NCBI GenBank assembly: GCA_963575745.1
Contig: CAUYUJ010000289.1
Span: 62,001-115,746 of the forward strand
Length of the DNA: 53,746 nt
Reading direction: 5' to 3'
DNA from: Prorocentrum cordatum
Taxonomy: Eukaryota
The first letter of the stretch is position 1. Each line of letters begins with the position of its first letter. Under the pieces are notes generated by a model. The model did not search any database. It was not told where the DNA came from and saw only the letters and a list, made by a program, of their open reading frames with translations. The translations under genes and the position numbers were made by a program. This document shows, piece by piece, positions 290 through 52,530 of this stretch.

Positions 290-25356
<25,067 letters not shown>

Positions 25357-25709
25357 GTAATTTACTGCTGCGGGCGGTGGTGGTGTATAGAAATTGGCCT
25401 CGCATTCCAGGTGGGGTCCGAGGACCGTGGCGCATCGCCGACGCACCGGCGATGCGGCTCGATGTGGAGCCCGATTTCCTCCACGCTGGCGTCGCCGATG
25501 CACCGCCGACGTCGCCGATGCATCGCCGATGCATCGGCGATGCACCGCCGATTCATCGGCGATGCGGCGCGGTCCTCCGACCCCATCTGTTCCGACCCCA
25601 CCTGGGGGCCTCTAGTCATTCGGCACGCCCCGACAGCCCTGGAGAGCCCGCACGGGTCCTTGGACCAGGTGGGCACGTGGCCGTAAGCCCGAGGCACAGC
25701 GGAGGCTGC

Positions 25710-28700
25710 CGGTGTTCACACGTTTTGATCTCTTGGTGGCGGGCATGAAGTGCATCCGTTGGATCCGCCATCAATCTTTGAGATCAAATTCAGTGTGGAT
25801 GAAGACATTCTTAAAATCATGCCCAAAAATCTTGTGACATTTAAGAAGGAAACGAAAAAAATAACGATCGATGCGTGCTTCAGCGCGATGAGCCATCGAT
25901 TGAGAGTCATTTTTTATTCTTTGTCCTGTTTTTCAAGAAAAGATTGCTGGACTATGAGAACAGTTAGTAGAACATAAAAATAAAAAAAAGAACATTCGAT
26001 TGATGATCTACGAACTGATGTTCATCATCAATCAAGTTCGTTTTATTTTTTCTGTTCAAGCTTTTTCCCATTTTGTTTCCTGTGAACTTTCCTTGACAGG
26101 GAAAGAAAGAGAGAGAGAGAGAGAGAGAACGGCCAACGCCTGATGGCGGAAATGAAATCTCTTGGCCGCTCATCTTCTCTCTCCGTCGTTCACAGGAAAA
26201 GAACAAACATCCATGAATGTCGTCCATCTGCTGCAGATGAATCGTGTTTTTTGGTTATATATTATATATATTTTATGATTGTTATTGTTATTGTTATTGT
26301 TATTATTAGTTTATCTTTAAGAACTATTATTATCACTGCCCCAGCAGTTGCAAATGATTGGTCATCTGCAGCTGGAGGAAGTAAGGTTCATGAGAGGATT
26401 TCTTTTCATTCGTTTTCAATGTATGATTCTGTATTAGGTCTTAACTCCTTTACGGTCATCTCTTAAAGAAAAGGGAAGCGTTTGCTGGTGGCAAGGCCTT
26501 GAGGCCCAAGCGAAGCTAACCAACAAACGATTGTTTCCCTTTCAAGAGATGTTCGAGCAAAGGAATAACATTTTTACATAAGTTATGGAAGAATAACCAT
26601 GCCGCCTTTCTTATTCAAAAGACAGTTTGATAGAAGTTAAAAAGAGAAGTACGAGCAAGCTGATGAAGAGCACATTTCCCTTTCATGTTCTTTTTTTTGT
26701 TTTTTTTTCACTTGCTCTCATCTTCTTTTCTTTTACATTTACATATTATTATTGAAAATCAAAGAGATGGAACGATAAACTTACAACACAAAATATAATA
26801 ACCAAGAAAGGACATGCTTATGTTTGATTCAATTTTCCTCTTCTCTCTTTCATCCTTATGATCATTTTGTCTTCTCCAAAGTAAAATGATTGAAAACTTA
26901 TTTCTTTTAGAATGTTACCATTCGAGACGTTTTCGTTCTATTTTTTTTTTGTTTTTCGGTTTATTGTATCATTATGAAAACCGGACAAGGAATTCACACC
27001 ATTTGCTTTTTTGTTTTCATTTAGTGTCCTCCTGTTGTACGAGCTGTTGGCAAGGTTCTTTGGGACCCAGCTTCAGGCTGACCAACAGCTCAAACAAATA
27101 ATTTTGCAAACCCGCACAAATGATGTCACCGAGGGTCTTCTCTCTTATGAGGAGCCTATCTGCGGACAGTCGAAGATGGTTGACTTTGCCATTGCAGGCT
27201 CTTATTAAATAGAGAATGGGACCTTCGGTCGATCCTTTGCATATTGCTGGCGTAGTGTGCTGGCCTTAGGCCTTAAGCACGCCAACGCAAGGGACCATAT
27301 GGTATCTTCATTTACACAAAAGAGGAAATAACTGGTGGAAATGAAAACCAGGACTTTAGGGCCCAAGGCTGATGCCATCTCCTGGCCATTATGAACAAAA
27401 GGAAGAAAGAACACTGATAGATTTCCGGAATAAATCTTTCAAACTCATTTTTATTTTTCTTTCTTTCTGATTTGGCCACGGGCCGTCTTTAGGATTTCAT
27501 TTTTTAATGAAAAATTATCTGCTGACCAGTCTCAAGGAAAGAAAGCGAATAAAGGCCAGCAGATAGTGAAAAGAAGAGCTCCTTACGGATCTCAACTCCT
27601 TTGCAGAATTCGTTCTCCGATGCGGCCAGGGCATCAATCAAGATAATGCATTTCAAGGCGAATGGTGGTCATGCGGTCCAAATTCTCTCTTCTTTGATCG
27701 GGGCTCACGATTTTTTTTTCTTGTTTTTAGAAAGTGAGCCCCCAAAGAAAGAGAGAAAATACATCATGATGAAACATGAAATGGAAGGTCTCCTCCAATC
27801 TCGACTCCACCATTTTTTTTTATTATTTTTTTTTGAACAAGAAAGTTTAACTGGGAACCGAGGGGGATCTTACTTCTTATATTTATGATGTCCTTCCTTT
27901 GGGTCCGTCTTCATTCCTGCTGTTCCTTCTTCTTTTTAAAGAAGAAGGCAGGGCTGAAAGACAAGACCAAATTAATAAAAACAGCATCGTTTTCTTATAC
28001 ATAAAGAAGTTACATGTTTATTGCCTCCTTGCTACTTTCTGGAATGAATTCTCACTTTTCTTTATTGTATGTCGTAAGAACTCTTCAAGCGATTGAAGAG
28101 GGATTTCTATCTTTATTAGAAGTTATTTCTTTCTTGCATCGATGAGACACTAGTTCAATCGCTAGTAAAAAAGGAGTGTTAATAATCATGTGGGCTGCAA
28201 ACTTACCTTCTCGTTTCCTTTCATTGATTGGTAGCTTCGGTCCTTCATGACCCATCTTCATATGACCATCATTGAACAAAAAGGAAACTACGATCGTGGG
28301 GAAGATTGGGCTCCCCACCGGATTATTAATCAAGAGGCCTCCGGTGGCGTTAACTTCTCATCTTTCCGAATAAAGGAAATGATTGCAAACGAGACTGCTG
28401 CAGCATATTGCGATCTTTTCTTCGGGTCCTTTTTTTTGCCAAAGAAAATTGTAATGCCAGCGGCCATCGGTCGCTAGTTTCTTTTTCCTACTATTTCATC
28501 TGGTGGCTTACATCGACACGATTGGTACGAGGCCGAGTCAGCAGAAGAGAAGATGAATATGTGCCACCAATCAATTGTTGTGGGCAGACATAGCTTCGTG
28601 GATGACCGCAATACAGAACAATACTTGTATTAAGCGGTCATCAGTAACGAAGCTGTTTTCCTTCGTCTTTCTATTCGGGGGCCGTGAATGGTTGACCGCC

Positions 28701-28778
28701 GAGAACAAAGACGAGTATGGGCACGGAATTAGGACTAACCGCTGAACTATGTTTCTTTTGTTATTGTTGGCGGTTAAC
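25710..28778 (+). other. AT-rich hairpin-array island, segment 1 (candidate mitochondrial-DNA insertion or structured ncRNA locus)
   Basis: Abrupt drop in GC; no credible ORF; consecutive imperfect inverted repeats with loops cgtgc-TTCA-gcgcg (25879), gaac-TGAT-gttc (26016), cgcc-TGAT-ggcg (26141), ggcc-TTGA-ggcc (26499), gacc-TTCG-gtc (~27223), ggc-TGAT-gcc (~27370). Confidence 0.75.
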
Positions 28779-30387
28779 TTTTTCCCAACCCTCCTGCGTT
28801 GGGTTCTCGTTTTGAATAGAGCACTGCTCGCGCCTTCCTTCCCGCCCCCCCCCCGTCCCTCTCTTCCCCCCTGCCTTCGCTCGTCGCCGCGTGCCGCCTG
28901 GGGGGCTGCGATCTGTGAAACTGACGCCACTTTCGAGGCCTGCTGGGGGGCCCAGCACAGTGGGTACACACGGCGGACTCAAATGAGACCTCGCCATCCC
29001 TGGGGGGCTGCGATCTGTGAAACTGTCGCCACTTTCGAGGCCTGCTGGGGGGCCCAGCACAGTGGCACACGGCGGACTCAAATTAGACCTCGCCATCCCT
29101 GGGGGGCTGCGATCTGTGAAACTGTCGCCACTTTCGAGGCCTGCTGGGGGGCCCAGCACAGTGGGTACCCACGGCGGACTCAAATGGGACCTCGCCATCC
29201 CTGGGGGGCTGCGATCTGTGAAACTGTCGCCACTTTCGAGGCCTGCTGGGGGGCCCAGCACAGTGGGTACCCACGGCGGACTCAAATTAGACCTCGCCAT
29301 CCCTGGGGGGCTGCGATCTGTGAAACTGTCGCCACTTTCGAGGCCTGCTGGGGGGGCTAACACAGTGGGTACACACGGCGGGCCCGAATGGGACCTCGCC
29401 ATCCTTGGGGGGCTGCGATCTGTGAAACTGTCGCCACTTTCGAGGCTTGCTGGGAGGCCCAGCGCAATGGGTACCCACGGCGGATTCAAATGGGGCCTCG
29501 CCATCTCTGGGGGGCTGCGATCTGTGAAACTATCGCCACTTTCGAGGCCTGCTGGGGGGCCCAGCACAGTGGGTACACACGGCGGACTCAAATGAGACCT
29601 CGCCATCCCTGGGGGGCTGCGATCTGTGAAACTGTCGCCATTTTCGAGGCCTGCTGGGGGACCCAACACAGTGGGTACTCACCGCAGATTCAAATTAGAC
29701 CTCGCCATCCCTGGGGGGCTGCGATCTGTGAAACTGTCGCCATTTTCGGGGCTTGCTGAGGGGCCCAACGCGGTGGGTACCCACCGCAGGCTCAAATTAG
29801 ACATCGCCATCCCTGGGGGGCTGCGATCTGTGAAACTGTCGCCGCTTTCGAGGCCTGCTGGGGGGCCCAGCGCAGTGGATACCCACCGCACACTCAAATT
29901 AGACCTCGCCACCCCTGGGGGGCTGCGATCTGTGAAACTGTCGCCGCTTTCGAGGGTTGCTGAGGGGCACAGCACAGTGGGTATTCACCGCGGATCCAAA
30001 CGGGACCTCGCCGTCCTTGGGGGGCTGCGATCTGCGAAACTGTCGCCACTTTCGAGGGTTGCTGAGGGGCGCAGCACAGTGGGTACCCACCGCAGACTCA
30101 AACTAGACGCCGCTTTCGTCCTTGTTCTCCTCCTGCAGTCACCTTCCCTCTGCTGCAGCCGTGCTGATGGTTCGGCATCCCGCACGTTTTTCTCTTGGTC
30201 TGTGTTCCCGATTCCCCATGTCTTCTTCGAGCCTGTAGCTGTCGCCCCTCGTTCTTGTATGGTTCTCCTGCGCATCATGCCATAGGCGCGTGTCCCAAGT
30301 AGCTTACACATCAAGTTGATTGTCCATGCAAGGTTCGGCTAACTCCTCGTTTCCATTGGCACAAATGGGTTAGGTACAGGGTAATTT
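28779..30387 (+). mobile_element. Non-autonomous Helentron/DINE-like element with central 102-bp tandem array and captured unique fragment
   Basis: Starts TTTTT-CCCAACCCTCCTGCGTTGGG-TTCTCGTTTTGAATAGAG (5' stem-loop), then a pyrimidine tract, the tandem array and unique 30107-30360; ends GGGTTAGGTACAGGGTAA-TTT. Termini are shared with 32767-37114. Confidence 0.55.
28895..30105. repeat. Tandem satellite, ~102-bp unit, ~12 copies (variant A)
   Basis: Repeating cctcgccatccctggggggctgcgatctgtgaaactgtcgccactttcgaggcctgctggggggcccagcacagtgggtacccacggcggactcaaat. Confidence 0.95.
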
Positions 30388-30924
30388 CCTTCCCCGCGCG
30401 CGTTTCATTCTCTTGCGTTAACAAGAAAGAGGTGGAAAGAAAACAAGACAATGTTGGAACACGCTTGGGGCAGAAGTGTGGGCGTATGTTGTGCACATGA
30501 AAGAAGAGCTCCGCATGAGCTTCAAGCTCGAGCTTTTCTGGCGCTGCAAGTAAGATGCCCACGGGAAGGCATCGTATTATTGTCTCTTCTTGAGGAAAGT
30601 CCATTCTCTTTCATAGTAGTTTTTTTTTGTTTGTGTAAATGACAGTTTACTATAAAGAAAGGCGGTGGTAACATTTTCTAGAAGAGGCAGAACATGACAT
30701 GCATTTCCAAGGTTCATTTTGATGGATCAAACATAAAAGGAATTCGTGGCTCCTCAGCATGTTTTTTTTGTTTCTCCTGCAGCGGGGCTAATTCCTGTTT
30801 ATGTTTTGACCTTGAAGGAACCGTTTTCTTCTTATGACCTTCGTTTCGGTCTCTTTTCTTGAGAGAACGCGGCAGAGCAGAGAAAATAGGGGGCGACGGG
30901 CCCGTGAGAAGAACGCAAAGCCAT

Positions 30925-31018
<94 letters not shown>

Positions 31019-32056
31019 CAAGGGCTTCCATTTTTGCTAGATGGAAGCAAGCTTAAACTAAAACAAAAGTGGGAGTTCGTAAAGATGTACAATAAAGAAT
31101 AATAGTGATGACACGTTAATCTTAAACAAGCACTTGTTTCCATGATTTTTTTCAGTAGAATGGATCTTCGGTTCATTATATATATAGATATCTTTTAACA
31201 CATCCCCAAACCCATAACCTAAGATAGTACATGTTATTGATGGGCGATCGAAGAGACAGTAATAAACGATCGTCCACCACCTTTTTTTGTATGTTATTCT
31301 AGTTTGTAAAAATGAAAAAAAGGAAATTGCTGGAACAGGAAGAATCAAGCCTCGCGACCCACTGATTGATGGCCAGCCGTGGGCTTCAACCTGCGGTTGA
31401 CCATCAATCAGTCGTGAGGCTATTTTCTTTACAACGAATGAAAACGCGTTTTTAATCTTCACAGGGGGCCATCCGTCTCTTAGTCTTTCTCAGGGGAACA
31501 TTGAGACGGAAGTGGTGCATTCTAGAAGTTGTGAACTAAGTGTGTTTTTTATACAAACATTTTCTTTTCCAATTATTGAGCTTATATATTGAGCAGCAAT
31601 TGCAAATTTAGAAATGCAAGGAAAGAGCTGTTTAGCATGCCTAATTGATGTAGAAATTGTTCATTTTAAGTTTATTTGTCAGCACTATCAATCTTAATTA
31701 AGTAGAAATGAATTTCATGAACGGGTTAATTTCCGATATTTCTGTCTCCAATCTAAAAATGGAACTCCTGGGGCACGCGCGTGAAAGAAGGGGGAAACAA
31801 GGTGCGCCCAAAGGGTGAAGAGAAACGGCTGATGCCGGGAGAAGGAAAGGAAACCAATTTCAAACTCATCTTCGAGCACCTTATTGCGGTCAAGGGCGTG
31901 AGGCCCCAACATCAGTTGCTGACCGCAAGTGCTCGTAAAGCATGGGTTTGTTGATTTCGTTTTCTACCAGCCGCCACTAATGACCAAAACATAACAAACG
32001 TTTGTTGATGGCGAGCTGATGCTCAATCTTTCAGGACCATGCCATCAATTGATAAC

Positions 32057-32115
<59 letters not shown>

Positions 32116-32766
32116 CTTCCGCAGGCGGTTGATGCTCCATCGTGAGAGAGCTTACTTGTCAGCCTTAAGCTGGCGCTCTCTCATCATCGATGGAAGTTTC
32201 CTTTCATGAGGGCGTTCGCTTCGATCTCTTCTGTGGCATTCAAGAAAGAGAAAGAATACGCGCCGCAGTTCAGAGGCGAAGCGCGCCTTCATAATGAAAG
32301 GGACGAAATCAACCCTTCTCCCGATCACGAAAGACATATAGAACGAGCCGTATTAACTGCCTCAGCCGTTGCTCGTTCTTTTCTTTCACTTGGTCGGGAA
32401 AGGGGGGATTGATTTGATGGCGCGCCAGTCTCTGTCCTTATGGCCAATAATAATTTCTTCCACTTTTTAACTATATGGTCATGCGAATGAAAAGGGCGAG
32501 TGACGTGCCATCCTATGTTATTTCTCTTCTTTGGTCCGGTCTTTGGGCAGGCTTCATCTTTTCTTCAATGTTGGTCATCTTAAGATGAGCGCGTTGAAAT
32601 AAGGAACGAGAATGAAGACCTGCCCTGCATACGGACCAGGGGAAGGACAATAACAACAAACTCGTCCTCGGCTCTCATCTCACTTTCTCTTTTATTAATA
32701 ATTGGTTAAATCTGGAGCTGGTGTTCAACAGCTTATTACAGAGAAAATAGAGCCGAAGGGCAATGA
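30385..32766 (+). other. AT-rich hairpin-array island, segment 2
   Basis: Same architecture: stems at ~31348-31421 (aagcctcgcgac..ctgattgatgg/ccatcaatcag..gtcgtgaggct), gagc-TGAT-gctc (~32017), ~32201-32300, ~32307-32416, tcatc-TTAA-gatga (~32580). Confidence 0.75.
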
Positions 32767-32859
32767 TTTTTCCCAACCCTCCTTGGTTGGGGATTCGTTT
32801 TGAATAGAGGGGTGTGGTCGCGTCCTCCTTCTCCCGCCTCCCGCCTCCGTCTTGTCTCC

Positions 32860-33921
32860 TCTCGCCATCCCTGGGGGGCTGCGATTTGTGAAACTGTCGC
32901 CACTTTCGAGGGCTGCTGGGGAGGCCAGCAGAGAGGGTACTCACCGCGGATCCAAACGGGACCTCGCCGCCCCTGGGGGGTTGCGATCTGCGAAACTGTC
33001 GCCACTTTCGAGGGCTGCTGGGGAGGCCAGCAGAGAGGGTACTCACCGCGGATCCAAACGGGACCTCGCCGTCCCTGGGGGGCTGCGATCTGTGACGCTG
33101 TCGCCACTTTCGAGGGCTGCTGGGGAGGCCAGCAGAGATGGTACCACCGCGGATCCAAACGGGACCTCGCCGTCCCTGGGGGGCTGCGATCTGTGAAACT
33201 GTCGCCACTTTCGAGGGCTGCTGGGGAGGCCAGCAGAGAGGGTACTCACCGCGGATCCAAACGGGACCTCGCCGTCCCTGGGGGGCTGCGATCTGTGAAA
33301 CTGTCGCCACTTTCGAGGGCTGCTGGGGGGCCAGCAGAGAGGGCACTCACCGCGGATCCAAACGGGACCTCGCCGTCCTTGGGGGGCTGCGATCTGCGAA
33401 ACTGTCGCCACTTTCGAGGGCTGCTGGGGGGCCAGCAGAGGGGTGTCGCCGTCCCTGGGGGCTGCGATCTGTGGGAAGGCTCACTTCGCCACTTTCGAGG
33501 GCTGCTGGGGAGGCCAGCAGAGAGGGCACTCACCGCGGATCCAAACGGGACCTCGCCGTCCCTGGGGGGCTGCGATCTGTGAAACTGTCGCCACTTTCGA
33601 GGGCTGCTGGGGAGGCAAGCAGAGAGGGTACTCACCGCGGATCCAAACGGGACCTCGCCGTCCCTGGGGGGCTGCGATTTGCGAAACTGTCGCCACTTTC
33701 GAGGGCTGCTGGGGAGGCCAGCAGAGAGGGTACTCACCGCGGATCCAAACAGGACCTGGCCATCCTTGGGGGGCTGCGATATGCGAAACCGTCGCCACTT
33801 TCGAGGGCTGCTGGGGAGGCCAGCAGAGAGGGCACTCACCGCGGATCCAAACGGGACCTCGCCGTCCCTGGGGGGCTGCGATTTGCGAAACTGTCGCCAC
33901 TTTCGAGGGCTGCTGGTGGGT
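32860..33921. repeat. Tandem satellite, ~102-bp unit, ~10 copies (variant B)
   Basis: Same core (gggctgcgatctgtgaaactgtcgccactttcgagg) with variable part gaggccagcagagagggtactcaccgcggatccaaacggg; units start near 32863, 32965 and 33067. Confidence 0.95.
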
Positions 33922-33935
33922 CCTGCGGAGTGAGG

Positions 33936-35470
33936 TTTTTTTCACTGTGTGCGAACGCCAAGCAAAACTCTGCAAGCAGGTTCAAACTTCGCGGCATGAA
34001 AAATGAGGCTAACTGCATAAGTCTGCCTAGCCAGCGTGCGCCTGCAGGGCCGATACGATCGGCAGGAGCCTTGTAGCCTCTACCGGGACCAACCGCGACG
34101 CTGCACTCAAAACGGGTGCCACTAGCCACGGCTCTTCCCGCAGCTGTCTAATTACCTCACCTCCGTCGGAAAAGCGGCTGAGCAACCTGAGGTCAGAGAC
34201 CGAGAGCGCCTTCGCACCCTCGTCAAAACTCGAGCCGGAAAAATGCTGCCCAGAAAAAGCCGAAACTTCCACCTCACCCGAAAGAGCGCTCATAGCCATC
34301 TGATCGGAGGGCGCCTCAACCGAAGGAGGCAGCCCCAAACCAGCGTCAACGGACACTCCTGGGCAAGCCTCGGAAAGAGGCTCAGCCAAAATGGCCGCTG
34401 AAAGGCGAACCTCATCAGACGGAGGCTCAGCCAAAAAGGAATCCACAAGAGTAGGGCGAGCCTCAACAGTTGGAGGCTCAGCCAAACCAGCACTTGAGGA
34501 GACCACTGAGGGAGATATTGCAGAAGCGGCTTCAACGACAGACGAGCGAGCCTCATCAGAGGGAGGCTCAGCCAAGAATGCTTTTGAAACCACATCTTCA
34601 TGCACAGCAGCGGCTTCAGCGACAGACGAGCGAGCCTCATCAGAGGGAGGCTCAGCCAAGAATGCGTTTGAACCCACATCATATTTCTCCCTCTTCTTGT
34701 GTTTTCTTTTACGGCGCACGCGCTCGCCGATAAAGAAATTCAAGGCCTTGGCGTCCTCCTCGGCGGGATGCGGGGAATGCGGACTGGTGGAGGCGGCGGC
34801 GGCAGCACCTGCACCACAGAGCTGGTCGGTGCAGCACTTGCTGGCGGGGGTGCTGGCGGCCACTCCTTCAAGCCCGCCTTGGCCTCCTCCGAGCGGACAT
34901 CCTTGTTCTTCTTCTTGTGCTTGCGCTTCCGAGGGCGCTTGGCCTCTGCCACCGCTGGAGCCGGAGGCGGCGTCGGGATCTTCAGGCAAGCCCTCGGAGC
35001 GTCCTGAGACTCCGGAGGAAGCGAGAATACCTCCTTCGCTACCGGCGGTGTCGGGGACCTCGTACTGGCACCGTCGCACTTCTCCTTCAAAGCCGGGGCC
35101 ACAGGCGGAGCCGACGCCTCCTTCTGGTTGACCTGCAAACGGTCCCATCTCCTCAGGCGTTTTATTGGCTGCACCTCCTCCTCCTCCGGCTTCAGCGGCA
35201 GGGAATCCTGCCCCGGAATCTGCATGCCCTTGCTGAACTCCATGTCCACCACATCGACCAGGCTCCAAATCCCTGGCGGCGGTAACGGGGGGGGCAGCCG
35301 TAGACAGAGCCTCCTGCGAAAACGACGATCTCGAGCTCATCGTTGGAAACTCCGAAGCACTGAGTGAAAGCACTAATACGGTCTCCTAGTGAGGTGCCCA
35401 GCAAATCAACCGGCACAAAAAAGCGCATGGACGGGGCCTTGAGCCGGGGTGGCTTGAGCCAGGCTACGGA
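33936..35470 (-). pseudogene. Processed retrocopy of a spliced-leader trans-spliced mRNA (intronless, frameshifted; product with RKRKHKK basic motifs and LAEPP repeats)
   Basis: Minus strand begins TCCGTAGCCTGGCTCAAG CCACCCCGGCTCAAG GCCCCGTCC ATG (ATG at 35428), ends in A7 (T run 33936-33942), and is flanked by direct repeat CCTGCGGAGTGAGG at 33922-33935 and 35471-35484. The coding sequence appears to pass through three frames and stops at 34027. Confidence 0.85.
35438..35470 (-). other. Dinoflagellate spliced leader (DinoSL) remnant plus tandem relict SL
   Basis: 35470-35453 TCCGTAGCC----TGGCTCAAG versus canonical DCCGTAGCCATTTTGGCTCAAG (ATTT deleted); 35452-35438 CCACCCCGGCTCAAG versus canonical 15-nt relict CCATTTTGGCTCAAG. 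Confidence 0.85.
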
Positions 35471-36990
35471 CCTGCGGAGTGAGGCGCCGCGCGGACCTGA
35501 GCGGGACCTCGCCGTCCATGGGGGGCTGCGATCTGCGAAACTGTCGCCACTTTCGAGGGCTGCTGGTGGGTCCTGCGGGGTGAGGCACCGCGCGGGCCTG
35601 AGCGGGACCTCGCCGTCCCTGGGGCTGCGATCTGCGAAGCTGTCGCCACTTTCGAGGGCTGCTGGTGGGTCCTGCGGAGTGAGGCGCCGCGCGGACCTGA
35701 GCGGGACCTCGCCGTCCCTGGGGGGCTGCGATCCGCGAGACTGTCGCCACTTTCGAGGGCTGCTGGTGGGTCCTGCGGAGTGAGGCGCCGCGCGGAACTG
35801 AGCGGGACGTCGCCGTCCCTGGGGGGCTGCGATCTGTGAAACTGTCGCCAGTTTCGAGGGCTGCTGGTGGGTCTTGCGGAGTGAGGCACCGCGCGGACCT
35901 GAGCCCGACCTCGCCGTGCCTGGGGGGCTGCGATCTGCGAACCTGTCGCCACTTTCGAGGGCTGCTGGTGGGTCCTGCGGAGTGAGGCACCGCGCGGGCC
36001 TGAGCGGGACCTCGCCGTCCCTGGGGGCTGCGATCTGCGAAACTGTCGCCACTTTCGAGGGCTGCTGGTGGGTCCTGCGGAGTGAGGCACCGCGCGGACC
36101 TGAGCGGGACCTCGCCGTCCCTGGGGGGCTGCGATCTGCGAAACTGTCGCCTTTTTCGAGGGCTGCTGATGGGTCCTGCGGAATGAGGCGCCGCGCGGAC
36201 CTGAGCGGGTCCTCGCCGTCCCTGGGGGGATGCGATCTGCGAAACTGTCGCCACTTTCGAGGGCGGCTGGTGGGTCCTGCGGAGTGAGGCACCGCGCGGA
36301 CCTGAGCGGGACCTCGCCGTCCCTGGTGGGGCTGCGATCTGAGCGAAACTGTCGCCACTTTCAGGGCTGCTGGTGGGTCCTGCGGAGTGAGGCACCGCGC
36401 GGACCTGAGCGGGACCTCGCCGTGCCTGGGGGGCTGCGATCTGCGAAACTGTCGCCACTTTCGAGGGCTGCTGGTGGGTCCTGCGGAGTGAGGCACCGCG
36501 CGGACCTGAGCGGGACCTCGCCGTCCCAGGGGGCTGCGATCTGCGAAGCTGTCGCCACTTTCGAGGGCTGCTGGTGGGTCCTGCGGAGTGAGGCACCGCG
36601 CGGCCTGAGCGGACCTCGCCGTCCCTGCGATCTGCGAAGTGTGCGCCACTTTCGAGGCTGCTGAAACTCGTCCCTGGGGGGTTGCGATCTGCGAAACTGT
36701 CGCCACTTTCGAGGGCTGCTGGTGGGTCCTGCGAAGTGAGGCACCGCGCGGACCTGAGCGGGACCTCGCCGTCCCTGGGGGGTTGCGATCTGCGAAACTG
36801 TCGCCACTTTCGAGGGCTGCTGGTGGGTCCTGTGGGGTTAGGCACCGCGCGGATCTGAGCGGGAACTCGCCGTCCCTGGGGGGCTGCGATCTGCGAAACT
36901 GTCGCCACTTTCGAGGGCTGCTGGTGGGTCCAGCGGGGCGAGGCACCACGCAGATCTGAGCGGGACATCGCAATCCTTGGGGGGCTGCGA
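35471..36990. repeat. Tandem satellite, ~101-102-bp unit, ~15 copies (variant C)
   Basis: Same core with variable part tgggtcctgcggagtgaggcaccgcgcggacctgagcggg. Confidence 0.95.
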
Positions 36991-37110
36991 GCCTCACGAA
37001 TGCCGCTCGCAGAAGTACATGCGCCCATGTCACGTCATCATCTCCGTATAACGAGTCCCAATCTACTCATGCCCCGCATTGCGCAGGGGTTGGGTACGTC
37101 GCCAGGGTAA

Positions 37111-38700
37111 TTTTCTTTCTAGTGAAGCGCGAGCTCTTTCTTAGGATCGGTGGTGATGACGAACCCAAGCTCTCGCCTGTTATGGGCTCGTCCACCGATC
37201 CAAGGATATGAGCTCACAACTTCCAAGACAGGATCGGCTGATAAACAGCCATTATTATGCCAGCGATCCAAACGAGAACAAGTGATCGATGGAATGATGA
37301 CTGTCCGCCAATCGAAGGAAAAAAGGGTTTTCTTAAGAACCTAAAGATAACACATGAAAAAGATGATGAACGGCTGTTAAAACCTTCCCCTTTCTTTTTC
37401 ATTACAATCTGCTGTCAATTACATTCTCCCTCATAATCAAGTAAAGCTTTTTCATTTAAGTTTTAATGCGAGGGGGGATTTTGAAGTTGACCGCAGAGAA
37501 TGGAAACACAACTGGACCAGCAGCTTACAGACGGCTATTGTTCCTTTTCTTAGTGTGGTCACACATAATAAATTAAAGTGCGAGTGGCCACCGAGAAATA
37601 ATAGCCGTCAGTTGATAGCTGAATATGATCCACCCTTGGTCCTTTCTTTCCGTCATACAAAGAGAAAAAAACGAACAGCAGTGCGAATGAAAGAGTTGAT
37701 GATGCACAACTGTGCTTAAGCACGCATCAACCTTTTCATTCTCTTTCTTTTACGTGTTCTCTTAATAAAGGAAAGAAAGAAAGGGACCACGGAGAAGACT
37801 GCAGGACCTTCAATCAATCCTGGCGTTATCAAAGAAAATGTGCGTGCTTCAGCACCAATCAAAGCTTGCATTTTCTTTAGCACCAGAGATTGTTGAGTCC
37901 TGAAGGTCTTCTTTCATTTCTTTACAAAAAAGTTCATCTTTGAGTCCTTTCCATTTTCTCTCTTGTGCGCTCTTGAGATCCAGCCAGTCATTAAACAGAC
38001 ACAATATTGGATTTGAGCTCACAGAAGAAAGAAATTCATGAAAGGACCAAAGGGGCTCTCCCTAAGAAGTGAATGATTATCGGACCGAAGAACATGTCTC
38101 ATTTATTCCCTTATGTAATCTCATGCTTTCTCTTGAGAGAACATATGAATGAAATGAGATTAATATATATATATATATACACATATTAGTTCCAGAAGGC
38201 CCGCCAGTCGTTAACGGTTAACCGCTTCGCTCTTCCTTTCTTGTGGTGGGTTCATAACAGCTGCTGCTGACCCGCCATCACAACGAAGGAAAGAAGAGCC
38301 AAAGCGTGGTAACGTTAACCGTTAACAGCCTGCTGCTTACTACGGAGGTCTTGTGAACTCATTTTCTTCTCTTCATTGATCTGCTGTCTTCGATGGCATC
38401 ATTCATTAAGCTGAGGCTTAAGCCATCGAATTATGACAGCAGGTCGTAGAGAAGAAAGTGATTTCAAATGCTGAGCCAAAGAGCTCTAGTTTGATGGTCA
38501 ATCGAAGATTGAAGCTGAAGCTCATGCCATCAAACGAGAGAGAGAGAGCTCTTCTCCAAGGCCAGCATTTTTGAATCACTTCCTCATTTTAGTTGAAGGA
38601 AACAATCTCTGGCACAGGAGTTTCTGTCTTTTCATAATAAACTCAGAACTAATTCCTTGAAGAAAAGTATAAGCATTTTTTGTTCAAGAAAAAAACAGAA
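37111..38700 (+). other. AT-rich hairpin-array island, segment 3
   Basis: Same architecture: ggatcggtgg/ccaccgatcc (~37144-37201), gacggctatt/aatagccgtc (~37529-37609), gtgc-TTAA-gcac (~37716), gtgc-TTCA-gcac (~37848), tctc-TTGA-gaga (~38133), gttaacggttaac/gttaaccgttaac (~38210-38326), aagc-TGAG-gctt (~38413), agc-TGAA-gct (~38516). Confidence 0.75.
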
Positions 38701-39068
38701 GGATTCCTTAACCCCCACCCTGACTCGCGATGAGTGAATTGTCCGTGTTCGGTTCTTTCCAGGCTTTCGCCCGCGAGGTTTGGGCCCGAGGTCGTTTTCA
38801 CTAAACCACGTTTTTCTAAAGGGGGTTCTGTCCATCCCCGAGAATCCAGGCCAGCGGCCTTGAAAAGCGGCGTCTTGTGCCGACTTACAGGCCAGAGAGC
38901 AGGTCTCCTCTTCCCGTCCTGCGTGTCGGCACTCTGCTGCGTGCTGCGGCTTGGTGGCCCTCGTCCGAGGTGTGGGCATGCCCTCCCCGCCCACGGCTGC
39001 CGCGCCTCCCCGGCCCGCCTCCCGGGCGGGGGTGGGGACGAAGCCCGCGCGCGCGCTCGGGCGCCCAG

Positions 39069-39204
39069 GACGGGCGCGGACACGCCACATTGGCGGCGAG
39101 GGCCTTCCGCGCGGGGGAGCAGATCTTCTGCGAGCCGCCCCTGGTGCTGGTCGCCGGCACGGCGGGGTCGAGGTTCGAGGATCGGGGCCCCCAGATCTCC
39201 GACG
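39069..39204 (+). CDS. Exon of SET-domain (SMYD/Set5-like) lysine methyltransferase, N-terminal SET segment
   Basis: cccag| acceptor at 39067-39068, then DGRGHATLAARAFRAGEQIFCEPPLVLV, matching the SET-N motif GRG...A.R.(I/F)..GE.I..E.PL; donor approximate (G|GC at 39204 or gtgagt at 39207). Confidence 0.7.
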
Positions 39205-40534
39205 GCGTGAGTGTTCATTCCCCACGTTTGTCCTCGATTAGGGGGCCTCATGCGAACCCTGCCCCTACCCCCCACGTTTTCTGAGGGGGAGGGGTAGGGT
39301 TCGCATGTGGCCCCCTATCGATTTTGGCCCGTGGAGCCCCTTCCTGGCCAAACAGCCATGGATCCGGGATCCGGGACAAAAGACTGCCCCTCAAGGGACG
39401 AAAACATATCGTCGGGCGTCTGGGTTTGGGCGTAGTCATCTGGCCCGGGGCGTCCAGGGTATTTCCAGAGGCTCTAGGCCTCCTAGATGGGGTCCGAGTA
39501 GATGGGGTCGGAGGATCGCGCCGCATCGCCCGTGAATCGGCGATGCGGCTCGATGTGGAGCCCGATTTTTCCCACGCTGGCGTCGCGGATGCGTCGCCGA
39601 CGTCGCCGATGCATCGCCGATGCATCGCCGATGCATCGCCGATGCGGCGCGATCCGTCGACCCCACCCAGTCGGATGCCATCTGGGAGGCCTCTATTTTC
39701 AGAGGCCCCCGACCAGAGTTTTTTGCTTTGTTTGCGCGTCTCGCCCGCTCATCCCCGATCTTTCAGGAGTATGGGGAAATATGGGAAAATATGGGGAATC
39801 TTTTTATTAGTGTGTATTTATTTAATCGCTTCGCTCATGCCGCCGGCCCTGGAGCCCTCTTTAGGGCCTCTTGGGGGCCTCTTGGGGACCTCTTGGGAGT
39901 CTCTTGGGGCTCCTTGGCGGCGTTTTGGAGGCCCCCAGGGCCTCTTGGGGGGCTCTTGGGGGTAGTCGATTGCGGCTCCCCCCTCGGAGGCCACGATCCT
40001 CGTGAGGGGTGTCGAAAAATACCCTCCCCTGGAGTGGTCTGGTGGCTTCTCCCGGGCTTCTCTCGGGACCTTGCCGGGGTACTTTTCGTCCGGGGGCCCC
40101 CAGGGGCCGCTCCGCGCGCGCGAACTAGAAATATTGTTAACAAGTTACCGGAGATCTTAGCACGCCTCTGGCCCGTTGGGCCGGCGAATTTGTGTGTCCT
40201 GGGGCTCCTTTAATCTTGTCCCGAGTGCCCAGCCTTCCCTATATAGAAATGCGGTTTTGCGATCGGGGACCTGTCGCCGAGCTATATCGGCGAGGCGTCG
40301 TCGCGATGGCAGGCAGGGCGTGTGCCTCCTGAGGCGTCTCACCCCTTCGGCCTCCCTCCTTTCGAGGAAGCAGAAGAGCGCCACGAACGTAACTTTTCGG
40401 CGCTCCGCGCGGATTTCCTGGATCCGCTCCGGGGCCCCCCTGGCGGCGCCTCCGGCGCCGCCCCCCTGGTGCGCTCCGCAACATGGGGAGGGGGGTCCAG
40501 CGCGTATGCAAGAAATCCGCGCGGACCGTCGAAC

Positions 40535-40679
<145 letters not shown>

Positions 40680-41527
40680 TTGTTCTTCCTCTAATGTCAG
40701 CAGGGTGGCATCATTCAACATCGAGAGCGTGCAGCATCGAAAGTCCAAGGCTTCCAGCGTCTGGCAAGAGTCAGGACGGCTTGCTTCTCCGATTTGTTAT
40801 TGAGGCTTGTTTCGAGCCCTGGGGCCTGCCGAACATTGCCCACGGCGCGAAAATCATGCGGCCGAAATGGTCGAGTGCACTTAAGCATCGAACGAGTTTT
40901 GGAAGTATATTTGAGGCTGCTTGGAGGCAGATCGATCCTCTCTTAGGACTTGTTTGGGGATCTTGGGGGCCTTCTTGGGGCAGTCTTGGACGCCACGTCC
41001 ATCGGCCCCCGGAAGACACCGAACTCGAGGCGCACACCGGCATCAAACGGCTCCAGAAGTGCCCCAAACACTGAAACAGGTCGCAAGAAGGGTCTCGACA
41101 GGGCTCCAACGGGGCGTCAAGAGCACCCCAAAAGAGCTTCAAAGGGTCCGAAGAGGAATCCCAATCCTCGAATCCCAACCCTCGAATCCAATGTGTTCTC
41201 TCGCTCCGCTGATGCACTTCGGCGCACCGTGACACAGATGCTCAGCCCGCCTGGGACTTGCCTAACCCAGGGGTGAGCTCGGTGGCTTAACCTGCTCGAG
41301 CCAAACCCCTCGAATCCGAGGCTCCGCCCAACATGGGTTTTCATCCGTGGTCTGTCCTTCTGTCCGCGGCTGGCCAGGGCGACCACCACGCCAAAGTATT
41401 CGTAACCCCCAGTCCACAGACGAGGGGGGAAGTGCTGCGGCACGAGGGCCCACGACCGAGACCACGACGACGACGACGACGCCGACGACGACGAGGATGA
41501 CGACGACGACGACGACGACGACGATGT

Positions 41528-42727: not shown

Positions 42728-42885
42728 CAGGAGGGGAAAAAACACACAGACACAATTAATCTTCGATCCCCAGGAAAATATGGAAAAACATGGGAAGTGG
42801 GGGGGAAGACAAAACCCCAGAAAATATGGGAAAATATGGGGAATCATTTTATTTGCGTATTTATTTGTGTGTCACAGGGCCCCTT
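42728..42885 (+). repeat. Dispersed ~155-bp element (copies ~17130-17281, ~22737-22882, ~43397-43555, ~45429-45588, ~48992-49140, partial ~39765-39825)
   Basis: caggaggggaaaaa-cacacagacacaattaatc...gggaaaatatgggaagtgg...tttatttgtgtgtccc.gggccc. Confidence 0.85.
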
Positions 42886-43058
42886 CAGTTTTGTTCTCCC
42901 CGTGTGCGCCGCCATGCCTGGCCATGGCCACCCCGGGCCCTGCGGCAGGGCGGGCGCACGGCAGGTTCGTGTCGCGCGCCGACCGGCGGCGACCCCGCCG
43001 CCGGCGTTCAGAGTTGATCCCCGCTGGGGACCCAGAATCGGTCGGTGTTGACGAACTA

Positions 43059-43208
43059 GGGGGCCACATGCGAACCCTACCCCTACCCCCCACGATTTCT
43101 GAGGGGGAGGGTGGGGTTCACTCCGTTCGGGAGCTCCCGAGCAAAGTGAACCCCACCCTCCCCCTCAGAAATCGTGGGGGGTAGGGGTAGGGTTCGCATG
43201 CGGCCCCC
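43059..43208. mobile_element. Tc1/mariner-type (TA-flanked) palindromic MITE; short copy at 39241-39315
   Basis: TA|gggggccacatgcgaaccctaccccta...taggggtagggttcgcatgcggccccc|TA; both copies flanked by TA. Confidence 0.8.
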
Positions 43209-43576
43209 TACCGACGTTCCGGAAACGGCCGATCCTTCAAATCTGAACGACCCCGCGGTGTCGGGAAGCACCGCCGCGGTCGACACGACACGCGAACATG
43301 CCGTACAGAGCATCCTGGCCTCGGCCAGGAGGGCGTGTGCACCAGGCGAAGGCCCGGGGTGGCCCTGGCCCAGCTGTGGTTGTGGTGCCATGGTTCAGGA
43401 GGGGAAAAAACACACAGACACAATTAATCGTCGATTTACCCAGAAGATATGGGAAAATATGGGAAGTGGGGGGGAAGACAAAAACACCAAAAATATAGGA
43501 AAATATGGGGAATCTTTTTATTTGTGTGTATTTATTTGTGTGTCCCTGGGCCCCTTTAATGGTGCCCTCTGCGCAG

Positions 43577-44589: not shown

Positions 44590-52530
<7,941 letters not shown>

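What the first reader, a model, noticed from the sequence alone, without database searches (positions are those of the whole stretch)
25875..38525. Shared loop code C-(T[T/G]NN)-G capping otherwise unrelated hairpins
Seen on + strand: c-TTCA-g (25879, ~37848), c-TGAT-g (26016, 26141, ~27370, ~32017), c-TTGA-g (26499, ~38133), c-TTAA-g (~32580, ~37716), c-TGAG-g (~38413), c-TGAA-g (~38516), c-TTCG-g (~27223). All have a C-G closing pair and a loop starting with T, in all three segments and in one orientation. Known: C(UUCG)G is an extra-stable RNA tetraloop, and yeast RNase III Rnt1p selects stems by NGNN tetraloops. Inference: the loops could be a recognition signal for a nuclease, recombinase or packaging protein, or the footprint of the mechanism that generates the hairpins.
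Basis: partly seen in the sequence, partly recalled or inferred. Interest (0 to 1): 0.75.

Follow-up and report, generated by a model that had tools for sequence, protein, structure and literature searches.

The report
C-G-closed T-first caps on DNA hairpins
In an AT-rich, gene-free stretch of a GC-rich eukaryote-like genome, many unrelated long DNA hairpins carry the same kind of small GC-rich tip with a four-base loop closed by C-G, which looks like a property of the DNA palindromes themselves, not an RNA signal.

Summary
In the three AT-rich segments, 4-nt loops on perfect stems of at least 4 bp are closed by 5'-C...G-3' 16 times against 6.1 expected. G-C, A-T and T-A closures are near chance. 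C-[T(T/G)NN]-G occurs 11 times against 1.1 expected (0 of 500 shuffles). Each segment shows it separately, and the rest of the window does not. Ten of the 11 sit at the tip of a longer imperfect hairpin. The consensus is sharper than reported: G-C-[T-K-A-W]-G-C.

"One orientation" does not hold in general. Of 21 strong hairpins, 8 carry the pattern on the + strand and 6 on the - strand. Only the TGAT loop is biased (5 against 1). Stem mismatches show no strand preference (G·T 24, A·C 24), so an RNA reading is not supported.

Two listed sites are mis-described: 25879 has only 2 Watson-Crick pairs, and 27223 is a triloop.

My best reading, at moderate confidence, is that these are DNA-level palindromes centred on stable micro-hairpins that act as folding or turn-around points. 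The closest known cap is the DNA-specific CTT(T/C)AG loop of IS200/IS605 hairpins. The closest known landscape is the dense inverted repeats of dinoflagellate mitochondrial DNA. The organism was not identified and no related sequence was found.

The parts
25800..28778 (.). AT-rich hairpin segment A
   Evidence: GC 0.35-0.47 against about 0.6 in the flanks. Tiled by inverted repeats. No Pfam hit on its ORFs.
28779..30390 (+). GC-rich insertion 1: conserved left end, CT-rich leader, 102-bp satellite array, right end GGGTTAGGTACAGGGTAAT
   Evidence: TRF array 28897-30102. Left end is shared with 32767 and 9542. Right end is shared with 37088-37115. The exact boundaries are my reading of those alignments.
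30391..32766 (.). AT-rich hairpin segment B
   Evidence: GC 0.39-0.47. Hairpins. Contains T72/A20 at 30927-31018 and T58 at 32058-32115.
32767..37115 (+). GC-rich insertion 2: same left end, 102-bp array, a 1.5-kb unique GC-rich piece, then a 101-bp array and the right end
   Evidence: TRF arrays 32861-33916 and 35471-36990. Ends aligned. ORF 34027-35385(-) has no homologue.
37116..38720 (.). AT-rich hairpin segment C
   Evidence: GC 0.43-0.47. Densest in caps: 5 C[TKNN]G against 0.22 expected.
26012..26023 (+). cap GAAC-TGAT-GTTC
   Evidence: 4 WC pairs. At the apex of hairpin 25917-26107.
26137..26148 (+). cap CGCC-TGAT-GGCG
   Evidence: 4 WC pairs. At the apex of hairpin 26115-26183.
26495..26506 (+). 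cap GGCC-TTGA-GGCC
   Evidence: 4 WC pairs. At the apex of hairpin 26446-26564.
27367..27376 (+). cap GGC-TGAT-GCC
   Evidence: 3 WC pairs. Not inside any hairpin found by my search.
   Evidence: 4 WC pairs. The only one of the 11 caps not at a hairpin apex.
31907..31918 (-). cap CAAC-TGAT-GTTG, read on the minus strand (+ strand: C-ATCA-G)
   Evidence: 4 WC pairs. In the apical region of hairpin 31843-31965. A counter-example to 'one orientation'.
32013..32024 (+). cap GAGC-TGAT-GCTC
   Evidence: 4 WC pairs. At the apex of hairpin 31986-32070, score 38.
32575..32588 (.). cap TCATC-TTAA-GATGA (perfect palindrome)
   Evidence: 5 WC pairs. At the apex of hairpin 32460-32705.
37712..37723 (.). 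cap GTGC-TTAA-GCAC (perfect palindrome)
   Evidence: 4 WC pairs. At the apex of hairpin 37634-37792.
37844..37855 (+). cap GTGC-TTCA-GCAC (exact CTT(T/C)AG)
   Evidence: 4 WC pairs. At the apex of hairpin 37793-37912.
38128..38141 (+). cap TTCTC-TTGA-GAGAA
   Evidence: 5 WC pairs. At the apex of hairpin 38097-38159, score 39.
   Evidence: 4 WC pairs. At the apex of hairpin 38210-38319.
38406..38421 (+). cap TTAAGC-TGAG-GCTTAA
   Evidence: 6 WC pairs. At the apex of hairpin 38351-38468.
38513..38522 (+). cap AGC-TGAA-GCT
   Evidence: 3 WC pairs. At the apex of hairpin 38484-38540, score 36.
   Evidence: Only 2 WC pairs, followed by a T·G.
   Evidence: As a 3-nt loop it has a 4-bp stem. The TTCG register gives 1 WC pair.
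25917..26107 (.). long imperfect hairpin, score 62
26115..26183 (.). long imperfect hairpin, score 46
26196..26407 (.). long imperfect hairpin, score 50, with a 121-nt spacer holding a microsatellite
26446..26564 (.). long imperfect hairpin, score 47
26619..26873 (.). long imperfect hairpin, score 69, no C-G cap
27117..27239 (.). long imperfect hairpin, score 41
27683..27757 (.). long imperfect hairpin, score 49, no C-G cap
27898..27971 (.). long imperfect hairpin, score 40, T-TTTA-A centre
28393..28572 (.). long imperfect hairpin, score 43
28592..28654 (.). long imperfect hairpin, score 40, 10-nt loop
30709..30825 (.). long imperfect hairpin, score 48
31326..31439 (.). long imperfect hairpin, score 50, G-CTTCAA-C apex, TTGATGG...CCATCAA inner stem
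31843..31965 (.). long imperfect hairpin, score 51
32307..32410 (.). long imperfect hairpin, score 56
32460..32705 (.). long imperfect hairpin, score 60
37115..37231 (.). long imperfect hairpin, score 51, no cap
37634..37792 (.). long imperfect hairpin, score 62
37793..37912 (.). long imperfect hairpin, score 65, directly abutting the previous one
37938..38052 (.). long imperfect hairpin, score 50, no cap
38210..38319 (.). long imperfect hairpin, score 60
38351..38468 (.). long imperfect hairpin, score 61

Best explanation
The three segments are probably one AT-rich, non-coding domain of about 7.4 kb, split by two GC-rich satellite-bearing insertions. It is built almost entirely of long, imperfect, mutually unrelated inverted repeats.

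About half of these are centred on a short GC-rich micro-palindrome of consensus G-C-[T-K-A-W]-G-C. As single-stranded DNA, this folds into a mini-hairpin with a 5'-C...G-3' closing pair and a four-base loop (effectively two bases where loop positions 1 and 4 are T and A).

I read the 'loop code' as a DNA-level property of palindrome centres. Micro-hairpins with pyrimidine-5'/purine-3' closure are the ones that fold fastest and hold best. They therefore act as the nucleation or turn-around points at which fold-back (template-switch) copying creates or extends the flanking arms. The caps then decay at roughly the same rate as the arms.

Shown: the enrichment, the apical position, the GC-rich clamp, and the absence of a strand-specific signature in the stems. 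Inferred: the fold-back origin and the stability rationale. What the domain does for the cell (nothing, origin, centromere-like, organelle-derived) is not settled.
For: (1) Only one class of small hairpin is in clear excess: 4-nt loops closed by C-G, 16 against 6.1 expected, 0/500 shuffles.

(2) Within the long stems, C-G and G-C pairs are equally common (20.0% and 20.5%). At the apex, 12 of 21 strong hairpins have a C-G-closed tetraloop and 2 of 21 a G-C-closed one.

(3) Ten of the 11 caps lie in apical regions, which make up 35% of the island.

(4) The three pairs behind the closing pair are 64% GC, in a 41% GC island. Position -2 is G in 11 of 19, and loop position 3 is A in 13 of 19. Neither was part of the selection rule.

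(5) Both strands behave alike. G·T mismatches 24, A·C 24. RNA-parameter folds favour the + strand in 13 of 21, p=0.24. Pattern on + in 8 hairpins and on - in 6.

(6) Long hairpins are far above chance: score at least 40, 22 against 1.6 expected; at least 50, 14 against 0.2. Hairpins with score at least 30 cover 5147 of 7423 nt.

(7) The WC fraction in the arms is 0.872, so a 4-bp cap would survive intact with probability about 0.58. Observed: 12 of 21. This is a rough match only.

(8) Literature. Stable RNA tetraloops and a DNA triloop prefer C-G over G-C closure (PMC5815330, passages read). CTT(T/C)AG is a DNA-specific apical motif that needs the C-G pair in that orientation (bioRxiv 10.1101/2024.12.22.630000, passages read). 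The 5'-pyrimidine/3'-purine 'loop folding' rule for DNA mini-loops is recalled, not checked.
Against: TGAT loops are strand-biased: 5 against 1 (CTGATG 7 against 2 on the two strands). A purely symmetric DNA model does not predict that.

Most caps sit off-centre in a 14-45 nt apical spacer, with an unpaired tail on one side. Simple snap-back synthesis would give no tail.

The Mathews-2004 DNA energy model does not rank these loops as special: TGAT is 98th of 256, and TTAA, TTGA, TTCA and TGAA are 249th-255th as 4-nt loops. It does favour C-G over G-C by about 0.4 kcal/mol in the test stem.

A GC-rich centre should hinder cruciform extrusion from duplex DNA (recalled).

There is no direct evidence of template switching, and no second locus or genome in which to replicate the pattern.
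Confidence: 0.4

Rival explanations
1. The caps are recognition sites for a protein that acts on single-stranded DNA hairpins: an HUH/Y1-type transposase, another structure-specific nuclease, or a recombinase. That protein makes, moves or cuts the hairpins. This would be a eukaryotic counterpart of IS200/IS605 ends or REP/BIME arrays.
For: The cap consensus overlaps the TnpA-recognised DNA motif CTT(T/C)AG. There is an exact match at 37847 and a weak one at 25878, with near matches CTTAAG, CTTGAG and CTGAAG (bioRxiv 10.1101/2024.12.22.630000, passages read). TGAT loops are one-sided, 5 against 1. TGATG is the top over-represented word and has a fixed polarity toward the apex: 12 pairs against 1.
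Against: No transposase, Rep or nuclease domain was found in 288 ORFs of the window. No conserved tetranucleotide lies at a fixed distance outside the stems. The hairpins share no longer consensus, unlike REP or IS ends. Only 1-2 loops match CTT(T/C)AG exactly.
Confidence: 0.15
2. The domain is organelle-derived DNA, a nuclear copy of hairpin-rich non-coding mitochondrial DNA of the dinoflagellate type. On this reading the caps are inherited from whatever shapes hairpins in that organelle.
For: Dinoflagellate mtDNA non-coding regions are described as densely packed inverted repeats with relatively G+C-rich stems in A+T-rich DNA. In Amphidinium carterae, imperfect stems of 50-150 nt carry 10-30 nt loops (PMC2151934, section 8 read). 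That matches the arm and spacer sizes here. The domain is a compositional island.
Against: No cox1, cob or cox3 fragment or other Pfam hit was found in 87 island ORFs of at least 45 aa. No rRNA-like Rfam match appeared even at E up to 1. The organism is unknown, and the domain is interrupted by nuclear-type satellite elements. This rival concerns origin and does not by itself explain the cap.
Confidence: 0.2
3. The hairpins work as RNA: processing or termination signals, or miRNA/siRNA precursors transcribed from the + strand, with the tetraloop as the nuclease determinant.
For: TGAT is biased to the + strand. Sub-threshold Rfam matches to miRNA precursor models appear at 25917-26107, 26115-26183 and 27683-27757. 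Palindromes interrupt RNA-seq coverage in an algal mitochondrion (PMC4524435, passages read).
Against: G·T equals A·C in the stems, 24 against 24. The + strand RNA folds are not significantly more stable: 13 of 21, p=0.24. All Rfam matches are far below gathering score, three of the four miRNA-precursor rows are on the - strand, and one site matches on both strands. There is no UNCG, GNRA or AGNN loop among the 19 caps. Of 8 box-C-like RTGATGA sites, 0 have a box D with a terminal stem.
Confidence: 0.08
4. G-C-T-K-A-W-G-C and TGATG are duplex-DNA binding words for a chromatin, origin or centromere protein. Hairpin potential is secondary.
For: TGATG occurs 25 times against 8.0 expected, and its complement 18 times. 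GCCATC occurs 10 times against 1.4. The domain is an AT-rich island beside satellite arrays. Short dyad symmetries are reported as enriched at centromeres (PMC5889037, abstract only seen).
Against: Five of 7 + strand CTGATG words in the island have complementary flanks of at least 3 bp, against 0 of 14 elsewhere. So the word is tied to hairpin geometry. The spacing of TGATG...CATCA pairs is variable, 7-80 nt. There are no protein or chromatin data.
Confidence: 0.1
5. Chance plus the reader's eye: the pattern was defined after looking at the data.
For: The definition was post hoc, n is small, and many loop classes could have been picked.
Against: The pattern-free measure (C-G closure, L=4) was reached by 0/500 and 0/200 shuffles, among 24 closure-by-size classes. 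All three segments are enriched separately. The rest of the window is at chance.
Confidence: 0.04

Closest known systems
DNA-specific apical loop motif 5'-CTT(T/C)AG-3' of IS200/IS605 (IS608, ISDra2) transposon-end hairpins recognised by TnpA (bioRxiv 10.1101/2024.12.22.630000; abstract, introduction, results and conclusion passages read)
   Same: C-G closing pair in that orientation. T at loop position 1 and A at position 4 forming an extra pair around a 2-nt loop. A feature of single-stranded DNA, not RNA. CTTCAG occurs at 37847, and weakly at 25878.
   Different: Here loop position 2 is G as often as T (10 against 9 of 19) and position 3 is mostly A (13 of 19), so TGAT, TTAA and TTGA dominate. 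There are dozens of unrelated hairpins instead of two element ends. No TnpA gene was found, and the host looks eukaryotic.
Densely packed inverted repeats of dinoflagellate mitochondrial non-coding DNA (PMC2151934, section 8 read; function stated as unknown in PMC4558855, passage read)
   Same: A+T-rich non-coding DNA tiled with imperfect inverted repeats, with relatively G+C-rich stem parts. Arm and loop sizes are like those reported for Amphidinium carterae.
   Different: No mitochondrial gene or rRNA fragment is nearby. The domain is embedded in GC-rich DNA carrying satellites. A shared loop consensus is not mentioned in the passages I read.
Organelle palindromic repeat families with a fixed loop, such as LIMP of Lobosphaera incisa mtDNA (PMC4524435, abstract and passages read)
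   Same: Palindromes with a conserved loop and a fixed polarity of the stem words. DNA-level (cruciform, origin) and RNA-level (processing) roles are both debated for them.
   Different: LIMP stems are repeats of one pentanucleotide and the 7-nt loop is invariant. Here the stems are unrelated and only a degenerate 8-nt centre is shared.
RNA C(UUCG)G / UNCG tetraloops and Rnt1p AGNN tetraloops (recalled; C-G closure preference from PMC5815330, passages read)
   Same: Four-base loop and preference for C-G over G-C closure.
   Different: There is no UNCG, GNRA or AGNN sequence among the 19 caps, and no RNA-type strand signature in the stems.

Membership tests
C(UUCG)G / UNCG extra-stable RNA tetraloops | Loop sequence UNCG closed by C-G | tested here: not met
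0 of 19 caps have the TNCG form.
C(UUCG)G / UNCG extra-stable RNA tetraloops | Acts in RNA, so stems should tolerate G·U on the transcribed strand | tested here: not met
   G·T 24 against A·C 24. The + strand is more stable in 13 of 21, p=0.24.
Rnt1p (yeast RNase III) AGNN tetraloop substrates | Loop A-G-N-N (G at position 2, A at position 1) | tested here: not met
   Position 1 is T in 19 of 19 by selection. Among all 16 C-G loops with stems of at least 4 bp, 2 start with A (ATCA, AACT) and neither has G at position 2. G is at position 2 in 10 of 19.
CTT(T/C)AG DNA apical loop (IS200/IS605 TnpA hairpins) | C-G closing pair in 5'-C...G-3' orientation | tested here: met
   C-G 16 against G-C 4 (stems of at least 4 bp). 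12 against 2 of 21 hairpin apices.
CTT(T/C)AG DNA apical loop (IS200/IS605 TnpA hairpins) | T...A at loop ends, T at loop position 2, T or C at position 3 | tested here: inconclusive
   Among the 19 caps, A is at position 4 in 9, T at position 2 in 9, and C at position 3 in 3 (no T). The exact motif occurs only at 37847 (4-bp stem) and 25878 (2-bp stem).
CTT(T/C)AG DNA apical loop (IS200/IS605 TnpA hairpins) | Associated Y1 (HUH) transposase gene and defined left and right ends | tested here: not met
   No Pfam family passed its cut-off in 61+87+140 ORFs. Only the window could be searched.
Dinoflagellate-type mtDNA inverted-repeat arrays | Dense imperfect inverted repeats in A+T-rich non-coding DNA | tested here: met
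   22 hairpins with score at least 40 against 1.6 expected. 69% of the bases are covered by hairpins with score at least 30.
Dinoflagellate-type mtDNA inverted-repeat arrays | Linked cox1/cob/cox3 or fragmented rRNA genes; organelle location | tested here: not met
   No Pfam hit in the island ORFs and no Rfam match. Location is not testable without the genome.
MITE / foldback transposable elements | Multiple homologous copies with terminal inverted repeats and target-site duplications | tested here: inconclusive
   No hairpin has a second copy in the 53.7-kb window. Genome-wide copy number is not testable. Target-site duplications were not examined systematically.
Box C/D snoRNA cluster | RUGAUGA box C, CUGA box D 40-220 nt downstream, terminal stem of at least 4 bp | tested here: not met
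   8 box-C-like sites, 0 with box D plus terminal stem.
miRNA-like hairpin precursors | Match to a curated family, or a strand-specific stem signature | tested here: not met
   Best Rfam scores are 23-29 bits against gathering scores of 62-211. No strand signature.

The most novel reading that the evidence does not exclude
The domain is a field of single-stranded-DNA hairpins that a hairpin-specific enzyme or a chromosome function reads through their G-C-[T-K-A-W]-G-C caps. That would make it either a eukaryotic analogue of bacterial REP/BIME or IS200/IS605 hairpin systems, or a hairpin-defined centromere or replication-origin core flanked by satellites. The TGAT loops and the TGATG-to-apex polarity would give it direction.
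Probability: 0.12. Interest if true: 0.8.

Novelty: new variant of a known kind. Interest (0 to 1): 0.45.

Why it matters
Hairpin-dense non-coding DNA is known from several organelle genomes, and its function is still described as unknown. Here a nuclear-looking example carries a statistically clear, shared cap on otherwise unrelated hairpins. That cap overlaps a motif recently shown to be a DNA-only structure recognised by a transposase.

If the pattern holds genome-wide, it would provide a simple sequence handle. With it one could ask whether such hairpins form as DNA in vivo, how palindromes are born, and whether a protein reads them. If it does not replicate, it is a local curiosity.

Tried and rejected
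ORGANISM AND RELATIVES
- No whole genome is held for this window.
- Sequencing-run look-up for 25800-28800: none was listed, and no RNA holder was listed.
- Exact-pattern scans with the satellite 34-mer found 0 matches in metagenome, genome and viral contigs.
- A 32-nt dispersed-repeat word found 0 matches in metagenome contigs.
- ORF 34027-35385(-) has no homologue among 8000 scored candidates of 248-791 aa.
- Earlier-findings look-ups returned nothing relevant.

GENES AND RNA FAMILIES
- Pfam found no family above its cut-off in 61 long ORFs, 87 island ORFs and 140 mid-size ORFs.
- No tRNA was found. No Rfam match reached gathering score. At E up to 1 there were only sub-threshold miRNA-like and CrcZ rows.
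- Box C/D snoRNA reading: 0 of 8 candidates.

METHODS THAT FAILED OR MISLED
- A gapless hairpin scan missed the listed hairpins because their apices have bulges.
- A whole-region fold timed out.
- Chunked minimum-free-energy folding was too noisy for counting.
- The repeat finder was swamped by the poly-T/poly-A pair.

STABILITY DATA
- The Mathews-2004 DNA energies do not single out these loops.
- The high-throughput DNA melt paper (PMC12216960) holds the relevant tetraloop measurements. Its per-loop values were not in supplement 1, the only one of its three held supplement PDFs that I searched; the text says the parameter file is in Supplementary Data. So measured stabilities could not be compared.

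OTHER READINGS
- Helitron-type 3' hairpin plus CTRR end: I checked a few caps by eye and saw no consistent end motif. This was not tested systematically.

Full report
SETTING. The window is GC-rich (about 0.58-0.68 per kb) and full of trinucleotide and longer tandem repeats. It has no tRNA and no Rfam match at gathering score. No Pfam family passed its cut-off in 61 long ORFs or 140 mid-size ORFs. It looks like gene-poor eukaryotic nuclear DNA. The organism could not be identified:
- no genome is held;
- three collection scans with a satellite word and one with a dispersed-repeat word found nothing;
- the one long ORF I searched has no homologue.

Between 25.8 and 38.7 kb, three segments drop to 0.35-0.47 GC. 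They are separated by GC-rich blocks that carry 101/102-bp satellite arrays. The blocks have conserved ends. The left-end word is shared by 28779, 32767 and also 9542, where it precedes a different 77-bp satellite outside any AT-rich region. The right-end word is shared by 30366-30390 and 37088-37115. I therefore read the three segments as one AT-rich domain of about 7.4 kb, interrupted by two insertions of a satellite-bearing element. This is an inference from the alignments.

THE HAIRPINS. I wrote a gapped inverted-repeat search (match +3, mismatch -4, gap -5, span up to 260).
- It finds 41 non-overlapping hairpins with score at least 30, covering 5147 of 7423 nt.
- With score at least 40 there are 22, against a mean of 1.6 in ten dinucleotide shuffles. 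With score at least 50 there are 14 against 0.2.
- Setting aside the poly-T/poly-A pair leaves 21 strong hairpins of 63-255 nt.
- Their arms are 87% Watson-Crick paired (825 of 946 aligned positions).
- Their apical spacers are mostly 14-45 nt and somewhat GC-richer than the island.
- Several hairpins abut directly, for example 37634-37792 and 37793-37912.
- Segment interiors share no blastn similarity with each other or with the rest of the window.
- The 87 island ORFs of at least 45 aa give no Pfam family above cut-off.

THE LOOP OBSERVATION. I enumerated every 4-nt loop flanked by a perfect Watson-Crick stem, using no energy model and no prior pattern. I compared the counts with 500 dinucleotide-preserving shuffles.

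With stems of at least 4 bp:
- C-G closure 16 against 6.06 expected (0/500 shuffles reach it).
- G-C 4 against 5.97; A-T 17 against 13.6.
- T-A 20 against 14.0, a class inflated by the poly-T/A and (AT)n tracts.
- C[T(T/G)NN]G 11 against 1.14 (0/500).

With stems of at least 3 bp:
- C-G 42 against 21.9 (0/500); G-C 20 against 22.5.
- C[TKNN]G 19 against 4.13 (0/500).

Across loop sizes 3-8 and the four closures, C-G with L=4 is the only clear excess; G-C with L=5 is 11 against 4.3 (1/200). Each segment is enriched by itself: with stems of at least 4 bp, A has 3 against 0.46, B has 3 against 0.42, and C has 5 against 0.22. The other 40.6 kb of the window is at chance: C-G 80 against 72.9, G-C 67 against 72.8, TKNN 7 against 8.3.

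CORRECTIONS TO THE LIST.
- Eleven of the 13 listed sites hold up with at least 3 WC pairs.
- 25879 has 2 WC pairs followed by a T·G.
- 27223 is a triloop, GACC-TTC-GGTC.

WHERE THE CAPS SIT, AND A SHARPER CONSENSUS. Ten of the 11 caps with stems of at least 4 bp fall in the apical region of a longer hairpin. Those regions make up 35% of the island. In the long stems, C-G (5'-C) and G-C pairs are equally common (20.0% and 20.5%). At the apex, 12 of 21 strong hairpins have a C-G-closed tetraloop and 2 of 21 a G-C-closed one. The three pairs behind the closing pair are 64% GC in a 41% GC island.

Aligning the 19 caps on the loop shows features that were not part of the selection rule:
- G at position -2 in 11 of 19, mirrored by C at +5 in 11 of 19.
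- A at loop position 3 in 13 of 19.
- Loop position 4 is A in 9, T in 7, C in 2 and G in 1.
- No conserved position lies outside the stem.

The consensus is G-C-[T-K-A-W]-G-C.

ORIENTATION. The pattern T-K-M-A is its own reverse complement, so much of the 'code' reads the same on both strands.
- The minus-strand equivalent C[NNMA]G is itself enriched: 5 against 1.08 (1/500) and 9 against 3.98 (7/500).
- Of the 21 strong hairpins, 8 carry the pattern on + and 6 on -.
- The real asymmetry is the TGAT loop: 5 against 1 ATCA. CTGATG occurs 7 times on + and 2 on - inside the segments.
- Five of those 7 have complementary flanks of at least 3 bp, against 0 of 14 + strand CTGATG words elsewhere in the window.

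DNA OR RNA? If the hairpins were selected as RNA from one strand, G·T mismatches should outnumber A·C, and one strand should fold better. In the 21 strong hairpins G·T = 24 and A·C = 24. With RNA parameters the + strand is more stable in 13 of 21 (Wilcoxon p=0.24). Rfam at E up to 1 gives only far-sub-threshold matches to miRNA precursor models; three of those four rows are on the - strand and one site matches on both strands. Of 8 box-C-like RTGATGA words, none has a box D and terminal stem. I conclude that the hairpins are DNA-level palindromes. An RNA role is not excluded but has no support here.

A SHARED WORD. TGATG is the most over-represented 5-mer of the island: 25 against 8.0 expected, with its complement CATCA at 18. 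GCCATC (10 against 1.4), GCTGATG (5 against 0.38) and TTGATGG (6 against 0.79) follow. It has a polarity: TGATG then CATCA within 80 nt occurs 12 times, and the reverse order once. So in at least six hairpins the inner stem reads TTGATGG...CCATCAA toward the apex. The hairpins are therefore not wholly unrelated, and the TGAT loop may be the same word placed at the tip.

EXPLANATION. The most economical reading is that the caps are the centres at which the palindromes fold and from which they were made.
- C-G rather than G-C closure is a known thermodynamic preference of stable tetraloops, and of a DNA triloop (PMC5815330, passages read).
- A recent preprint defines CTT(T/C)AG as a DNA-only apical motif. 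In it, T and A form a Hoogsteen pair around a 2-nt loop, and the C-G pair must have that orientation (bioRxiv 10.1101/2024.12.22.630000, passages read).
- The older rule that 5'-pyrimidine/3'-purine closure allows 2-nt DNA loops is recalled, not checked.
- Stable GC-clamped micro-hairpins in AT-rich DNA would be the favoured sites for a nascent strand to fold back or switch template. That creates inverted repeats centred on them.
- The share of strong hairpins that still have an intact cap (12 of 21) is close to what 87% per-pair identity predicts for a 4-bp stem (0.58). That would fit neutral decay after birth. It is a rough argument.

Against this reading:
- TGAT is strand-biased.
- The caps usually sit beside an unpaired tail within the spacer.
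- The Mathews-2004 DNA model does not rank these loops as special.
- Nothing here shows template switching directly.

I give this reading 0.4.

RIVALS.
- Protein recognition of ssDNA hairpins (0.15). It is supported by the TnpA analogy, the TGAT bias and the TGATG polarity. It is weakened by the lack of any such gene in the window and of any fixed flanking word.
- Organelle origin (0.2). The published description of dinoflagellate mtDNA non-coding regions fits the architecture well: dense inverted repeats, relatively G+C-rich stems, and in Amphidinium carterae stems of 50-150 nt with 10-30 nt loops (PMC2151934, section 8 read). But no mitochondrial gene or rRNA fragment was found. This rival concerns origin, not the cap.
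- RNA signals (0.08).
- Duplex binding words of an origin or centromere (0.1). An AT-rich island with dyad symmetries beside satellites is at least reminiscent of this (PMC5889037, abstract only seen).
- Chance (0.04).

VERDICT. The C-G/T-first cap is real, island-specific and apical, but it is not confined to one orientation, and two listed sites are mis-described. Novelty: a new variant of known hairpin-rich non-coding DNA, with a cap consensus I did not find described in the papers I read. The main limits are the small n, the post hoc definition, the single locus and the unknown organism.

Noticed in passing
28779-28881, 32767-32872, 9542-9644; right ends 30366-30390 and 37088-37115: Satellite arrays (102/101-bp at 28897-30102, 32861-33916, 35471-36990; 77-bp at 9660-10568) are preceded by the same leader, TTTTTCCCAACCCTCCT..GTTGGG..CGTTTTGAATAGAG, plus a CT-rich run. 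Two of them end with GGGTTRGGTAC..CAGGGTAATTT. The end words CCCAACCC and GGGTTRGG are inverted. This looks like a mobile, satellite-carrying element that has inserted twice into the AT-rich domain.
   Followed up: partly
30927-31018, 32058-32115, 40536-40681: Very long homopolymers: T72 followed directly by A20, then T58 and T146 (TRF).
   Followed up: no
islands 25800-28800, 30130-32830, 37000-38720: TGATG is the most over-represented 5-mer (25 against 8.0 expected). It points toward hairpin tips: TGATG...CATCA 12 pairs against 1 in the reverse order. GTTAAC (7 against 1.2) and CGTTAAC (5 against 0.16) are also enriched.
   Followed up: partly
e.g. 26115-26183, 27683-27757, 37634-37792, 38210-38319, 38351-38468: The outer parts of many hairpin arms are homopyrimidine on one arm and homopurine on the other (TTCTCTCTTCTTT / AAAGAAAGAGAGAA types). 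These tracts have triplex (H-DNA) potential. Seen by eye and not quantified.
   Followed up: no
39241-39315 and 43058-43210: A GC-rich foldback repeat (GGGGCC.CATGCGAACCCT.CCCCTACCCCCCACG.TTTCTGAGGGGGAGGG...) occurs twice. The second copy is a near-perfect palindrome of about 150 nt (by eye).
   Followed up: no
42729-42870, 43397-43540, 45430-45570, also 39770-39830: A dispersed repeat beginning CAGGAGGGGAAAAAACACACAGACACAATTAATC, followed by ATATGGGAAAATATGGG-type words. It had no match in metagenome contigs.
   Followed up: partly
25510-25575, 39590-39650, 52782-52850: Short arrays of the palindromic unit CGCCGATGCATCG, which form long GC-rich hairpins just outside the AT-rich domain.
   Followed up: no
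15137-15630: A (TGA)165 microsatellite. It holds 8 of the 14 + strand CTGATG words found outside the islands, none with hairpin flanks.
   Followed up: yes
38970-39210: A possible first exon just downstream of the domain (ATG...FRAGEQIFCEPPLVLV, then GTGAGT). It was not scanned against Pfam; only translated and read by eye.
   Followed up: no
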